From assembly GCF_009931435.1 (NCBI RefSeq), contig NZ_CP043414.1: DNA of 64,000 nucleotides. One strand, written 5' to 3'. A model generated the notes under the pieces. It was given only the letters and a program-made list of their open reading frames with translations, made no database searches and was not told where the DNA came from. This document shows, piece after piece, positions 51,750-55,542 of the stretch. This stretch comes from Escherichia coli. Its GTDB lineage: Bacteria; Pseudomonadota; Gammaproteobacteria; Enterobacterales; Enterobacteriaceae. Made by a program: the position numbers and the translations under genes. Every line of letters begins with the position of its first letter. Position 1 is the stretch's first letter.

Positions 51750-51900
51750 TCATACATATGGACTCAGATTGGCCTGTGTCCGTGCTTCCTAAAGGAATTC
51801 ACAGATTTAGTCCTAATCATGATGACACATTAGCGAAGCTATGCCATGAACCGCCCCGGAAATCCTGGAGACTAAACTTCCTGAGAAAGAGGTAAACAGG

Positions 51901-52227
51901 ATGACTAAAAATACTCGTTTTTCCCCCGAAGTCCGTCAACGGGCAGTCCGTATGGTTCTGGAAAGTCAGAGCGAATATGACTCACAATGGGCGACAATTT
52001 GTTCCATTGCTCCAAAGATTGGCTGTACGCCGGAGACTCTGCGTGTCTGGGTTCGCCAGCATGAGCGGGATACCGGGGGCGGTGATGGAGGGCTCACCAC
52101 CGCTGAACGTCAGCGTCTGAAAGAGCTGGAACGTGAAAATCGTGAACTGCGCCGCAGTAACGATATCCTTCGCCAGGCTTCCGCTTATTTTGCGAAGGCG
52201 GAGTTCGACCGCCTCTGGAAAAAATGA
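51901..52227 (+). CDS. IS3-family transposase OrfA (HTH/leucine zipper)
   Basis: 108-aa [38 protein letters not shown]... Confidence 0.9.
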
Positions 52228-52641
52228 TGCCACTGCTGGATAAGCTGCGTGAGCAGTACGGGGTCAGACCGGTATGCAGCGAACTGCATATTGCCCCGTC
52301 AACGTATTACCATTGTCAGCAACAGCGACATCATCCGGATAAACGCAGTGCCCGTGCGCAGCACGATGACTGGCTGAAGAAAGAGATACAGCGCGTATAC
52401 GATGAAAATCACCAGGTATACGGTGTGCGTAAAGTCTGGCGTCAGTTGTTACGGGAAGGTATCAGAGTGGCCAGATGCACTGTGGCACGTCTCATGGCGG
52501 TTATGGGACTTGCCGGTGTTCTCCGGGGTAAAAAGGTCCGTACGACCATCAGCCGGAAAGCCGTTGCCGCAGGCGACCGCGTAAACCGTCAGTTCGTGGC
52601 AGAACGACCTGACCAGCTGTGGGTGGCTGATTTTACTTACG
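52224..52641 (+). CDS. IS3-family transposase OrfB, 5' exon (interrupted by group II intron)
   Basis: ORF 52224..52706 matches OrfB up to ...[10 protein letters not shown] and then reads into intron sequence. Confidence 0.8.
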
Positions 52642-54911
52642 GTGTGCCCGGAGTTCAGGGCGGGCATGGATGCTTAAATGAACCGCGAGTCTGTCTGGAA
52701 TATTGAACCGGTAACTCACGATGAGAAACCCAACAATCCCACCGGGTGTGACGGTGGAGAACCTGAGCGGCAGTGACCTGCGGCATGCCCGCAGGGTGAT
52801 GTAACCCGCTGACAACGGGGATTGAGGCGAGATCACTAAGCCGAGATGATCCTCAAGGTTAAGTACTGAAAGGCTGAAGAACATGAACCCGTTAATCCGC
52901 CTCTGTGGGTTGAAAACGTCACCACGGCCTACGTGATCTGACAGGCCGTGCAGGAGGAACTGGCAGTGATACGTAAGCACTGCCGGTCGAAGGTGTTTTG
53001 ACATGTATGCGAAACACCGGGGCAGCAGCGTCTATCACGCTTGCGTTGCTGACTTCTGCCAACTTGCGGCAAGCAAGGATAAAGAGTGCGACGGGCAGCC
53101 TCCTCAGTATGCCTGAGTCCAGGCAGGTAAACCGGGGAAGGTCAGCGACGGATGTTAAGGGGGCATGGCTCCGATGACGCGCTGGCTGGCGGAGCTTCCG
53201 TAGTAGTCCGCGATGGGGAAAGCCCATTACATGGCGAAGGGAAGCAGTTTGAATGTGTTTGCGACGTGAATTAACTGACCTAACGAGGTGAAGACCTTTG
53301 ATAATCAGCGAAATGCAACGCAAGCTTGCCACATGGGCAGTCACCGATCCGTCCCTACGGATTCAACGGCTGCTGCGTCTGATAACACAACCAGAATGGC
53401 TGGCTGAAGCGGCGCGGATCACGCTTTCATCAAAGGGGGCCCATACCCCCGGCGTTGATGGCGTGAACAAAACAATGCTACAGGCCAGACTGGCTGTTGA
53501 GCTGCAAATCCTCAGGGATGAATTACTCTCAGGCCACTACCAGCCCTTGCCCGCCAGACGGGTTTACATCCCTAAAAGCAACGACAAACTGCGACCACTG
53601 GGTATCCCCGCGTTGCGGGATCGTATTGTTCAGCGGGCCATGCTGATGGCGATGGAGCCGATATGGGAGAGTGATTTTCATACGCTCTCATATGGCTTCC
53701 GGCCTGAGCGCAGTGTCCACCACGCTATCCGCACGGTGAAATTACAGCTCACAGACTGTGGTGAAACCCGGGGACGCTGGGTGATTGAAGGCGACCTGTC
53801 CAGTTACTTCGACACCGTACATCATCGACTGCTGATGAAGGCTGTACGCCGCAGGATCAGTGACGCACGTTTCATGACTCTGCTGTGGAAAACCATCAAG
53901 GCGGGACATATCGATGTCGGTCTCTTTCGGGCGGCCAGTGAAGGTGTGCCACAGGGCGGTGTTATATCGCCGCTATTATCGAACATCATGCTGAATGAGT
54001 TCGATCAATACCTGCATGAGCGCTACCTGAGCGGGAAAGCCAGAAAAGATCGGTGGTACTGGAATAACAGTATCCAACGGGGCCGAAGTACGGCGGTCAG
54101 AGAAAACTGGCAGTGGAAACCCGCGGTGGCGTACTGCCGCTATGCCGATGATTTTGTCCTCATCGTCAAAGGCACCAAAGCACAGGCGGAAGCCATCAGG
54201 GAGGAGTGTCGGGGTGTGCTCGAAGGCAGTCTGAAACTCAGGCTGAACATGGATAAGACTAAAATCACCCATGTTAATGACGGCTTTATCTTTCTGGGGC
54301 ACAGGATCATTCGCAAACGCAGTCGTTATGGCGAGATGCGAGTGGTCTCAACGATCCCGCAGGAGAAAGCCAGAAACTTCGCCGCATCGCTGACAGCACT
54401 GTTATCAGGCAACTACAGTGAAAGCAAAGTCGATATGGCTGAACAACTCAACCGAAAACTGAAAGGCTGGGCCATGTTCTATCAGTTCGTTGATTTTAAG
54501 GCCAAAGTCTTCAGTTATATCGACCGTGTCGTGTTCTGGAAGCTGGCTCACTGGCTGGCCCGCAAATACCGTACAGGTATCGCTTCCCTGATGAGGTGGT
54601 GGTGTAAATCACCGAAACCGGGTCAGAGCAAAACGTGGGTTTTATTTGGTAAAACCAATCACGGCAAGCTCAGCGGCGAAATACTGTACCGGTTGGTGGG
54701 GCAAGGCAAGAAGCTGTTCCGCTGGCGGCTACCCGAAGGTAATCCCTATCTGAGGACGGAGACCAGAAACACGTATACATCGCGCTTTACAGAAGTGGCA
54801 ATGGCGTTCGCCAGCATTTAAATGGAGAGCCGGATGCGCTGAAAGGTGCACGTCCGGTTCGGGGAGGAGAGGCAGGGAAATAGTCCGACTACGCCCTGCC
54901 TCTTACTCTAC
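52642..54911 (+). mobile_element. bacterial group II intron
   Basis: Begins GTGTG (GUGYG), ends ...AC; domain V-like 34-nt hairpin at 54827-54860; encodes an RT/maturase ORF; excision restores an in-frame 296-codon orfB. Confidence 0.85.
53298..54821 (+). CDS. group II intron-encoded reverse transcriptase/maturase (IEP)
   Basis: 507-codon ORF (TTG start at 53298, or ATG at 53313); RT motifs PLGIPALRDRIVQRAM and YADDFV; maturase X-like C-terminus; no evident HNH/En domain. Confidence 0.85.
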   Translation: MIISEMQRKLATWAVTDPSLRIQRLLRLITQPEWLAEAARITLSSKGAHTPGVDGVNKTMLQARLAVELQILRDELLSGHYQPLPARRVYIPKSNDKLRPLGIPALRDRIVQRAMLMAMEPIWESDFHTLSYGFRPERSVHHAIRTVKLQLTDCGETRGRWVIEGDLSSYFDTVHHRLLMKAVRRRISDARFMTLLWKTIKAGHIDVGLFRAASEGVPQGGVISPLLSNIMLNEFDQYLHERYLSGKARKDRWYWNNSIQRGRSTAVRENWQWKPAVAYCRYADDFVLIVKGTKAQAEAIREECRGVLEGSLKLRLNMDKTKITHVNDGFIFLGHRIIRKRSRYGEMRVVSTIPQEKARNFAASLTALLSGNYSESKVDMAEQLNRKLKGWAMFYQFVDFKAKVFSYIDRVVFWKLAHWLARKYRTGIASLMRWWCKSPKPGQSKTWVLFGKTNHGKLSGEILYRLVGQGKKLFRWRLPEGNPYLRTETRNTYTSRFTEVAMAFASI

Positions 54912-55384
54912 TCAGCACATGGCGGGGCTTCGTCTATGTGGCGTTCATCATTGATGTGTTTGCCGGATACATCGTGGGGTGGCGGGTCTCATCGTCCATG
55001 GAAACGACATTCGTGCTGGATGCACTGGAGCAGGCGTTATGGGCCCGTCGACCGTCCGGCACGGTCCATCACAGTGATAAAGGTTCTCAGTATGTATCGC
55101 TGGCCTACACACAGCGGCTTAAGGAAGCCGGATTACTGGCATCAACAGGAAGTACAGGCGACTCGTATGACAACGCGATGGCGGAGAGCATCAATGGTCT
55201 TTACAAAGCGGAGGTAATACACCGTAAGAGCTGGAAAAACCGTGCAGAAGTGGAACTGGCCACACTCACGTGGGTGGACTGGTATAACAATCGACGATTG
55301 CTGGAAAGGCTGGGCCATACTCCTCCGGCAGAAGCAGAAAAAGCTTATTATGCTTCCATCGGAAACGATGATCTGGCAGCCTGA
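54912..55384 (+). CDS. IS3-family transposase OrfB, 3' exon (DDE catalytic core)
   Basis: Frame of ORF 54938..55384 continues from 54912 (SAHGG... [10 protein letters not shown] ... [15 protein letters not shown]). Confidence 0.8.
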
Positions 55385-55542
55385 GTTCACAGATAAAACA
55401 CTCTCCAGGAAACCCGGGGCGGTTCACCATGTCAGATACAGGTTCACTTAGTCGCGGTCTTATCAGTCTGGCCTTTAATACTTGTTTATCCTTAGCAATC
55501 AGTAGGTTGGTTTTATTTTTCAACAGACAGAAGTAGTTTCAT

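What the first reader, a model, noticed from the sequence alone, without database searches (positions are those of the whole stretch)
51847..55426. IS629-like element with intact ends and a 3-bp target duplication in a prophage remnant
Terminal inverted repeats tgaaccgccccgg (left, 51847) and ccggggcggttca (right, ending 55426) are both flanked by cca, consistent with IS3-family 3-bp duplication, so this was a simple insertion. Length minus the intron is 1310 bp. Its neighbours are a PduV/EutP-like gene fragment and an IS110-family transposase fragment, marking an insertion hotspot.
Basis: partly seen in the sequence, partly recalled or inferred. Interest (0 to 1): 0.4.

Follow-up and report, generated by a model that had tools for sequence, protein, structure and literature searches.

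The report
IS629 insertion carrying group II intron
This is an ordinary, already catalogued pair of nested selfish elements in E. coli: a 1310-bp IS629-type insertion sequence that landed cleanly at the edge of a decayed prophage, with its transposase gene split by the known 2270-bp group II intron E.c.I4.

Summary
Window 51847-55426 (3580 bp) is an IS3-family, IS629-type insertion sequence. It has perfect 13-bp termini (22/25 over the inverted repeats) and a CCA duplication on each side. A reconstructed empty site with a single CCA is found at 100% identity in many E. coli genomes, so both the ends and the 3-bp duplication are proven. The element is 1310 bp once a 2270-bp insert (52642-54911) is removed.

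That insert is a complete group II intron. It has a 5' GUGUG, domains V/VI, an RT-maturase ORF without an endonuclease domain, and an EBS1 that pairs perfectly with the upstream exon. It is 99.87% identical to a published copy of E.c.I4, a bacterial class A intron known to home into IS629, IS911 and related transposase genes. Joining the exons in silico restores an intact orfA/orfB with its frameshift pseudoknot.

The same insertion is present in 21 of 5426 complete E. coli genomes, and the IS-intron composite in 1404. The site lies between an EutP/PduV gene fragment and an IS110 transposase fragment, at the end of a CP4-44-type cryptic prophage. Four other independent IS629-family insertions lie nearby in other strains. 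Whether the intron arrived with the IS or afterwards is unresolved. Nothing here is new.

The parts
51844..51846 (.). Left copy of the 3-bp target-site duplication (CCA)
   Evidence: Sequence. The empty site with a single CCA is found at 100% identity.
51847..51871 (+). Left inverted repeat (IRL) of the IS629-type element. The first 13 bp match the right end perfectly, and 22 of 25 positions match overall.
   Evidence: The same terminus is seen in independent copies.
51901..52227 (+). orfA (108 aa), the helix-turn-helix transposase N-terminal protein
   Evidence: Pfam HTH_Tnp_1, E = 7e-13. The exact protein is recorded on the maximum counted 1000 contigs.
52182..52298 (+). ALIL pseudoknot, the signal for the programmed -1 frameshift. 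It spans the A6 slippery run at 52219-52224 and the orfA stop / orfB start overlap.
   Evidence: Rfam RF01497, 117.8 bits against a gathering score of 50, full length 1-117.
52224..52641 (+). orfB exon 1 (HTH_21 domain and the start of the catalytic domain, ending ...WVADFTY)
   Evidence: Pfam HTH_21. Junction defined by intron-free copies.
52628..52641 (+). Intron-binding sites in the 5' exon: candidate IBS2 UGAUUUU (52628-52634) and IBS1 CUUACG (52636-52641)
   Evidence: Complementarity scan. IBS1-EBS1 gives 6 of 6 Watson-Crick pairs. IBS2 is inferred.
52642..54911 (+). Group II intron E.c.I4 (bacterial class A), 2270 bp, in the sense orientation. 5' end GUGUG, 3' end ...CUAC.
   Evidence: 99.87% identical (3 mismatches, no gaps) to E.c.I4-2b of E24377A. 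Exact presence/absence polymorphism at identical IS copies fixes the boundaries.
52829..52835 (+). Candidate EBS2 (GAGAUCA) in a terminal loop of domain I
   Evidence: Inferred; 5 Watson-Crick and 2 G-U pairs with the exon.
52972..52977 (+). EBS1 (CGUAAG) in the loop of the hairpin GGCAGUG...CACUGCC
53313..54821 (+). Intron-encoded protein (502 aa): reverse transcriptase plus maturase (X) domain, with no endonuclease domain
   Evidence: Pfam RVT_1 (E = 4.5e-34) and GIIM. NCBIfam TIGR04416, 338.5 bits against a cut-off of 300. The intron DNA is identical to that of L001, whose ltrA product is WP_001474883.1. The exact protein is recorded on 514 contigs.
54825..54911 (+). Intron domains V and VI (domain V at 54827-54860; candidate branch-point A 7 nt from the 3' end)
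   Evidence: Rfam RF00029, 64.9 bits against a gathering score of 40, full length.
54912..55384 (+). orfB exon 2 (the rest of the DDE integrase-core domain, through the stop codon)
   Evidence: Pfam rve, rve_3 and rve_2. The spliced orfB is an open 296-aa frame.
55402..55426 (-). Right inverted repeat (IRR)
55427..55429 (.). Right copy of the target-site duplication (CCA)
51324..51689 (-). Left neighbour: EutP/PduV-family gene fragment, counterpart of K-12 yoeF. Not part of the element.
   Evidence: Pfam. RefSeq annotation.
55543..55914 (-). Right neighbour: IS110-family transposase fragment, in the position where K-12 has the pseudogene yoeD. Not part of the element.
   Evidence: Pfam. RefSeq annotation.

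Best explanation
Two nested selfish elements.

**The insertion sequence.** An IS629-type IS3-family element (1310 bp) transposed into a 270-bp spacer between two pseudogene fragments at the end of a CP4-44-type cryptic prophage. It duplicated the target CCA. This is shown.

**The intron.** The transposase gene orfB is interrupted, just after the codons for the conserved D-F-T-Y motif (inferred to hold the first catalytic Asp), by the endonuclease-less group II intron E.c.I4 in the sense orientation. The intron recognises this site by base pairing: EBS1 CGUAAG with the exon CUUACG, plus a probable EBS2-IBS2 pairing. It inserts by reverse splicing and reverse transcription (retrohoming).

**Consequences.** When the IS is transcribed, the intron should splice out with the help of its own RT-maturase. 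That would restore an orfA/orfB message from which the -1 frameshift on the A6 run, helped by the ALIL pseudoknot, gives the OrfAB transposase. Splicing and activity are inferred from intact sequence features, not shown.

**Order of events.** I think it slightly more likely that the intron homed into an IS629 copy already at this site than that the 3.58-kb composite transposed as a unit. This is not resolved.
For: **IS identity and ends**
- The termini are unique in the window.
- The exact empty site is found at 100% identity.
- Independent copies have the same termini, other flanks, and their own 3-4-bp duplications.
- Domains found: HTH_Tnp_1, HTH_21 and rve.
- ALIL pseudoknot, 117.8 bits.
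- The product spliced and frameshifted in silico matches NF033516 (IS3 family transposase) over 1-369 of 369 positions at 366 bits.
- RefSeq labels the same gene 'IS629 family'.

**Intron identity**
- Rfam Intron_gpII, 64.9 bits.
- RVT_1 and GIIM domains with no endonuclease domain; TIGR04416.
- 3 mismatches in 2270 bp against the E24377A copy that Leclercq & Cordaux 2012 (PMC3522654, Table S3) list as E.c.I4-2b.
- That paper states that E.c.I4 inserts at specific positions in IS629, IS911, ISEc16 and ISEc31 transposase genes.
- PMC3552965 places E.c.I4 in class A, which lacks the endonuclease domain.
- EBS1 is perfectly complementary to the exon and sits in a hairpin loop.

**Retrohoming into resident IS629 copies**
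- Two loci in related ETEC genomes have identical flanks and identical IS copies and differ only by the exact 2270-bp intron.
- Both of those genomes also carry the window's insertion.
Against: - No experiment here shows splicing or transposition.
- EBS2/IBS2 and the branch point are only predicted.
- No intron-free IS629 was seen at this exact site in 5426 genomes, so the two-step order has no direct support at this locus.
- I had no ISfinder reference sequence, so the name IS629, as opposed to its near-isoforms IS1203 and IS3411, rests on RefSeq labels. The family is mosaic, with copies differing by 0.5-4.5%.
Confidence: 0.93

Rival explanations
1. The IS629::E.c.I4 composite (3580 bp) transposed into this site as one unit. 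The transposase came either from its own spliced mRNA or in trans from intron-free copies, so a single event delivered both elements.
For: - All 21 genomes with the site occupied carry the intron. None of 5426 genomes has an intron-free IS629 at this exact site.
- In two carriers (PCP06235 and CD45) this is the only chromosomal match to either element.
- Near-identical composites (99.8%) sit at many unrelated chromosomal and plasmid sites.
- Leclercq & Cordaux list several E.c.I4 copies in 'strain-specific IS'.
Against: - Intron-free copies of the same IS haplotype (99.8-99.9%) are common.
- Intron gain or loss at fixed IS copies is directly seen in the same lineage. A two-step history therefore explains every observation equally well.
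- From general knowledge of IS3-family elements, translation running into an unspliced intron would give a truncated product, which predicts lower activity. This is an inference.
Confidence: 0.42
2. The element is a dead relic. As RefSeq annotates it, the transposase is two pseudogene fragments and the composite can no longer move or do anything.
For: - PGAP marks both halves as 'incomplete; partial' pseudogenes.
- Some carriers have only this one copy, so there is no sign of proliferation.
Against: - The pseudogene call arises because the annotation does not join exons across the intron.
- After the exact 2270 bp are removed, orfA (108 aa) and orfB (296 aa) are open, the ends are intact, and the product matches the IS3 model full length.
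- The intron ORF, domain V and EBS1 are intact, and the intron is about 99.9% identical to copies elsewhere.
Confidence: 0.12
3. The two IS halves come from different IS copies that recombined through shared intron sequence, giving a chimeric host. On this view the matching CCA flanks are coincidence and the locus is rearranged.
For: - Chimeric IS629/IS911 and IS629/ISEc31 hosts of E.c.I4 are reported.
- A 3-bp match has a 1 in 64 chance.
- Some composites elsewhere lack duplications.
Against: - The flanks join into a sequence found uninterrupted at 100% identity over 1000 bp in many genomes.
- Both IS halves belong to one haplotype that also exists intron-free with 1-2 mismatches in 1310 bp.
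Confidence: 0.02

Closest known systems
IS629 (IS3 family; near-isoforms IS1203 and IS3411)
   Same: - Length of 1310 bp.
- TGAACCGCCCC... termini.
- orfA/orfB arrangement with an A6 -1 frameshift and the ALIL pseudoknot.
- DDE (rve) catalytic domain.
- 3-4-bp target duplications.
- RefSeq labels this very gene 'IS629 family'.
   Different: - orfB is interrupted by an intron.
- The IS part is one of several mosaic haplotypes. It is 99.2% identical to one intron-free copy and 96-97% identical to three others, one of which RefSeq labels IS1203.
- It carries a private cluster of 6 SNPs at 52266-52413.
- It was not aligned to the ISfinder type sequence.
Group II intron E.c.I4 (and its Shigella twin S.f.I1), bacterial class A
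   Same: - 2270 bp, 99.87% identical to the published E.c.I4-2b copy.
- RT plus maturase protein without an endonuclease domain.
- Inserted at the documented homing position in an IS3-family transposase gene.
   Different: Nothing of substance. There are 3 substitutions against the E24377A copy, whose host is a different IS3-family element (flanking sequence differs; it looks IS911-like from memory). The published coordinates span 2271 bases and the window intron aligns to the first 2270; intron-free IS copies fix the length at 2270 bp.
RmInt1 in ISRm2011-2 of Sinorhizobium meliloti (class D intron)
   Same: The strategy is the same: an endonuclease-less group II intron whose natural homing site lies inside an insertion sequence, so that it spreads with that IS and among its copies. 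It is cited in PMC3522654 (Discussion) and is known to me from the literature.
   Different: The intron class, host IS family and bacterial lineage are all different. The resemblance is functional, not membership.

Membership tests
IS3 family / IS629 | Terminal inverted repeats ending 5'-TG...CA-3' | tested here: met
   TGAACCGCCCCGG / CCGGGGCGGTTCA. 13 of 13 match perfectly and 22 of 25 overall.
IS3 family / IS629 | Two overlapping ORFs (orfA, orfB) joined by a programmed -1 frameshift | tested here: met
   The orfA stop overlaps the orfB ATG at an A6 run. Rfam ALIL pseudoknot, 117.8 bits. RefSeq annotates a 'programmed frameshift' in intron-free copies.
IS3 family / IS629 | DDE transposase with an integrase-core (rve) domain | tested here: met
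   Pfam rve, E = 1e-21 on exon 2. The spliced OrfAB matches NF033516 at 366 bits against a cut-off of 160, covering 1-369 of 369.
IS3 family / IS629 | 3-4-bp target-site duplication | tested here: met
   CCA on both sides, and an exact empty site with one CCA. Sister insertions have ATA, GTC, ATT and CATC.
IS3 family / IS629 | Identity to the ISfinder IS629 type sequence high enough to count as the same IS or an isoform | not testable with these tools
   No ISfinder reference was available. The indirect evidence is the length of 1310 bp and the RefSeq label 'IS3-like element IS629 family transposase'.
Group II intron (mobile, ORF-containing) | Conserved 5' GUGYG and 3' AY boundaries | tested here: met
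   GUGUG at 52642 and ...CUAC ending at 54911. The boundaries are fixed by intron-free alleles.
Group II intron (mobile, ORF-containing) | Catalytic domain V, and domain VI with a bulged branch-point A | tested here: met
   Rfam RF00029 full length, 64.9 bits against 40. Domain V is GAGCCGGAUGCGCUGAAAGGUGCACGUCCGGUUC, and there is an A 7 nt from the 3' end. Branch-point use itself was not tested.
Group II intron (mobile, ORF-containing) | RT-maturase ORF in domain IV | tested here: met
   RVT_1 and GIIM. TIGR04416, 338.5 bits against a cut-off of 300.
Group II intron (mobile, ORF-containing) | EBS-IBS pairing with the flanking exon | tested here: met
   EBS1 CGUAAG against IBS1 CUUACG gives 6 of 6 pairs, in a predicted hairpin loop. 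The EBS2 candidate gives 7 of 7 pairs, including 2 G-U. EBS2 is a prediction only.
Group II intron (mobile, ORF-containing) | Self-splicing or protein-assisted splicing, and retrohoming | not testable with these tools
   Indirect evidence only: exact presence/absence alleles at two IS629 copies.
E.c.I4 (bacterial class A) | More than 95% nucleotide identity to a named E.c.I4 copy. This is the naming rule of the bacterial group II intron database as described in PMC3552965. | tested here: met
   99.87% over 2270 bp to E.c.I4-2b, NC_009801:4848623-4850893.
E.c.I4 (bacterial class A) | Intron-encoded protein lacks the D/En (endonuclease) region | tested here: met
   No domain other than RVT_1 and GIIM at E <= 0.01. 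I saw no HNH-type Cys motifs when reading the C-terminal 80 residues. Class A is described as endonuclease-less.

The most novel reading that the evidence does not exclude
The IS629::E.c.I4 composite is itself a transposing unit whose transposase can be made only after intron splicing. Intron splicing efficiency would then gate IS transposition, and the IS would carry the intron to new replicons. This locus would be one such single-step insertion: 21 genomes occupied, more than 600 empty, and no intron-free intermediate.
Probability: 0.35. Interest if true: 0.3.

Novelty: already known. Interest (0 to 1): 0.1.

Why it matters
It matters little beyond annotation.

- **Annotation.** Automatic pipelines report the split transposase as two pseudogene fragments plus a stand-alone 'ltrA'. 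In fact this is one potentially functional nested mobile element, and the composite is present in about a quarter of complete E. coli genomes (1404 of 5426).
- **Strain typing.** The exact empty, occupied and intron-bearing alleles at this locus, and at the two ETEC loci found in passing, are convenient natural markers for strain typing.
- **Mobility rates.** The same alleles could be used to measure how fast E.c.I4 homes into, or is lost from, resident IS629 copies.

Tried and rejected
1. **Intron-free IS629 at this exact site.** I searched with both flanks plus the spliced IS. None was found. The apparent full-coverage hits were independent IS insertions at other nearby positions.
2. **A composite-only IS haplotype.** I asked whether the IS haplotype of the composite exists only with the intron, which would have argued for unit transposition. 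It does not: intron-free copies with 1-2 mismatches are common.
3. **Foundational papers.** I tried to read Dai & Zimmerly 2002 (PMC1370338 and PMC101233). Neither is held. One E.c.I4 reference genome, NC_011745 (ED1a), is not in the collection.
4. **Domains I-IV in Rfam.** Rfam gave no hit to any group-II D1-D4 model at E <= 0.01. Only domains V/VI matched, so the structure of domains I-IV rests on a single-sequence fold (z = -2.0, weak).
5. **A shared EBS1 for both hosts.** I looked for an EBS1 that would pair equally well with IS629 and with the host IS of the E24377A copy. There is none: by my manual pairing, the same CGUAAG pairs 6 of 6 with IS629 and only about 4 of 6 with that host's exon (flanking sequences; EBS1).
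6. **The intron donor.** The introns at the two polymorphic ETEC loci differ by one base from the copy at this locus in the same genome. This copy is therefore not obviously their donor.
7. **Strand bias.** The + strand has positive GC skew (+0.045). The intron's sense strand is therefore probably the lagging-strand template, as expected for endonuclease-less introns. This is uninformative if the composite moved as a unit, so I did not use it.
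Full report

Yes. The 13-mer TGAACCGCCCCGG occurs only twice in the 64-kb window. One copy is at 51847-51859 on the + strand and the other at 55414-55426 on the - strand. Shuffled sequence gives 0.08 matches on average, and none of 100 shuffles gave two. The two ends match at 22 of their first 25 positions. Both ends are flanked by CCA, at 51844-51846 and 55427-55429. The element is 3580 bp.

**2. Are these the true ends, and is CCA a target duplication?**

I joined the 500 bp left of the element (including one CCA) to the 500 bp right of the second CCA and searched 5426 complete E. coli genomes.

- The reconstruction is present as one uninterrupted piece at 100% identity in all 40 genomes listed, for example O26:H11 strain 11368.
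- One place covers at least 80% of it in 631 genomes (annotation).
- Independent copies of the same IS family in other genomes begin and end with the same TGAACCGCCCC...GGGGCGGTTCA, but they have different flanks and their own duplications.

CCA is therefore target DNA and not part of the element.

**3. What the IS is**

- orfA (51901-52227, 108 aa) has the HTH_Tnp_1 domain.
- Its stop codon overlaps the orfB start at an A6 run (52219-52224). This lies inside a full-length match to the ALIL frameshift pseudoknot (RF01497, 117.8 bits against a gathering score of 50).
- orfB is split. Exon 1 (52224-52641) carries HTH_21 and exon 2 (54912-55384) carries the rve integrase core.
- Removing bases 52642-54911 gives a 1310-bp element with open orfA and orfB (296 aa).
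- The frameshifted fusion product matches the NCBIfam IS3-family transposase model end to end (366 bits against a cut-off of 160).
- RefSeq calls the identical gene in other genomes 'IS3-like element IS629 family transposase'.
- The family is mosaic. Five other copies I extracted differ from this one by 6 to 50 substitutions. I could not align to the ISfinder type sequence, so 'IS629-type' is as precise as the evidence allows.

**4. What the 2270-bp insert is**

It is a complete group II intron in the sense orientation.

- It starts GUGUG and ends CUAC.
- Its last 87 bases are a full-length match to Rfam Intron_gpII, which covers domains V and VI (64.9 bits against 40).
- It encodes a 502-aa protein (53313-54821) with RVT_1 and the group II maturase domain and no endonuclease domain. 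The protein passes the TIGR04416 equivalog cut-off.
- The hexamer CGUAAG at 52972-52977 sits in the loop of a predicted hairpin. It is perfectly complementary to the last six exon bases, CUUACG.
- A loop heptamer at 52829-52835 can pair with the exon bases just upstream. This second pairing is only a prediction.

**5. Which intron it is**

- Leclercq & Cordaux 2012 (PMC3522654) state that E.c.I4 inserts at specific positions in the transposase genes of IS629, IS911, ISEc16 and ISEc31.
- Their Table S3 gives E.c.I4-2b as NC_009801:4848623-4850893. I fetched that stretch. The window's intron differs from it by 3 substitutions in 2270 bases, with no gaps (99.87%).
- The host IS in E24377A has different flanking sequence and looks IS911-like to me.
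- PMC3552965 places E.c.I4 and S.f.I1 in bacterial class A, one of the classes without an endonuclease domain.

The intron is therefore E.c.I4, a known element in a known kind of host.

**6. How common it is**

- The full composite is present in 1404 of 5426 genomes (one place covering at least 80% of it), on both chromosomes and plasmids.
- This particular insertion, with its flanks, is in 21 genomes. They include several ETEC strains.
- In L001, L014 and L015 the composite sits between the same CCA copies and differs from the window's copy only by a few substitutions.

**7. Context**

- The gene order is dacD, sbmC, yeeA, tmaR (yeeX), an EutP/PduV fragment, the IS, an IS110 transposase fragment, then DUF957/DUF5983 fragments, cbtA, cbeA, yeeT and yeeS.
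- In K-12 the corresponding stretch is annotated as the right end of cryptic prophage CP4-44, with yoeF and the pseudogene yoeD.
- K-12 itself lacks the equivalent of window 51578-56471, so it has no target site.
- 'Prophage remnant' is therefore a fair description, and no intact gene is disrupted.

**8. The hotspot claim**

Other strains have independent IS629-family insertions, each with its own duplication:

| Window position | Duplication | Location | Locus |
|---|---|---|---|
| 50601-50603 | ATA | in yeeA | L006 |
| 51620-51622 | GTC | in the EutP fragment | L004 |
| 51731-51734 | CATC | eight genomes | L003 |
| 56351-56353 | ATT | right of the IS110 fragment | L005 |

Together with the window's insertion, that makes five events within about 2.2 kb of unoccupied sequence, three of them within 227 bp. 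The region is clearly hit repeatedly. However, the family has more than 31,000 copies in the collection, and I did not test for enrichment. I rate the hotspot claim as plausible and not established.

**9. Did the intron come with the IS or afterwards?**

For the one-step route:
- No intron-free IS629 occupies this exact site in any of the 5426 genomes.
- In two carriers this is the only chromosomal copy of either element.

For the two-step route:
- Intron-free copies of the same IS haplotype, with 1-2 mismatches in 1310 bp, are widespread.
- Two loci differ between ETEC isolate L6_E562 and strain 504239 only by the intron. One is in a phage DNA-ejection gene and one is on a plasmid next to parB. 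At each, the 600-bp flanks on both sides and the 1310-bp IS are identical, and the only difference is the exact 2270-bp intron.
- Both of those strains also carry the window's insertion.
- This shows retrohoming into resident IS629 copies, or precise intron loss, in the very lineage concerned. It also independently fixes the intron boundaries.

I lean slightly towards the two-step history and regard the question as open.

**10. How it probably works**

The sequence shows that the IS ends, both transposase reading frames, the frameshift signal, the intron boundaries, domain V, EBS1 and the RT-maturase ORF are all intact.

The following steps are inferred from established knowledge of IS3-family elements and group II introns:
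- Transcription from the IS yields a precursor RNA.
- The intron splices out with the help of its maturase.
- The ligated message gives OrfA and, by a -1 frameshift, the OrfAB transposase.
- The excised intron, bound to its protein, can reverse-splice into intron-free IS629 copies at the CUUACG|U site. Because it lacks an endonuclease, it probably uses replication-fork DNA ends as primers.

None of this was tested here.

**11. Novelty and verdict**

It is also ordinary:
- the IS family, the intron and their association are published;
- the locus itself is present and annotated in 21 complete genomes;
- RefSeq lists the split transposase as two pseudogene fragments, because the annotation does not join the exons across the intron.

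The most novel reading still open is that the composite transposes as a unit, with its transposase gated by splicing. That would be modestly interesting.

Noticed in passing
L010 vs L011 (chromosome) and L012 vs L013 (plasmid); intron equivalent to window 52642-54911: Two IS629 insertions in ETEC isolate L6_E562 and strain 504239 have identical 600-bp flanks and identical 1310-bp IS copies. They differ only by the exact 2270-bp E.c.I4 intron. These are natural filled and empty homing-site alleles. Neither IS has a target duplication (flanks gat/cat and gac/aac), which suggests IS-mediated rearrangement at those sites.
   Followed up: yes
window 52266-52413: The window's copy differs from the same insertion in CFSAN061769 (L001) by six substitutions, all within 148 bp of orfB exon 1, five of them non-synonymous. 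Strain 504239 (L015) has a different cluster of three substitutions at composite positions 695-702. The variant bases occur in other IS629-family copies, so these look like short gene-conversion patches. No genome in the collection matches the window's composite with fewer than six mismatches.
   Followed up: partly
L003 989-2298 (IS inserted at window-equivalent 51731-51734): The IS629-family variant in L003 has ACCTGGG|TAAGC at the intron homing site in place of ACTTACG|TCAGC, which changes Tyr to Trp. It should pair poorly with EBS1 CGUAAG. This IS variant may therefore be a poor target for E.c.I4.
   Followed up: no
window ~20600-28975: This low-GC stretch (36%) lies between galF/rfb-side and gnd-side sequence and does not align to the O5 O-antigen cluster of the otherwise collinear genome CFSAN061769. 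The flanks are 96-99.6% identical. The window's strain therefore has a different O-antigen gene cluster.
   Followed up: no
window 51578-56471: E. coli K-12 MG1655 lacks this whole stretch: the end of the EutP/PduV fragment, the insertion site and most of the IS110 fragment. Its yoeF/yoeD region is a further-deleted version of this prophage end.
   Followed up: partly
window 51901-52641 and 54912-55384 (L001 features CA697_RS08815 and CA697_RS08825): RefSeq/PGAP annotates the two transposase exons as separate 'incomplete' pseudogenes and the intron ORF as a free-standing ltrA. The annotation does not join the exons across the intron, although the composite (one place covering at least 80% of it) is found in 1404 complete E. 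coli genomes.
   Followed up: yes
L007 1196-3495 (E24377A, NC_009801:4848623-4850893): The same intron, with an identical EBS1, sits in another IS3-family host (it looks IS911-like) whose exon reads CCTATA| in place of CTTACG|. By my manual pairing only about 4 of 6 EBS1 pairs form there, so IS629 looks like the best-matched host of the two.
   Followed up: partly
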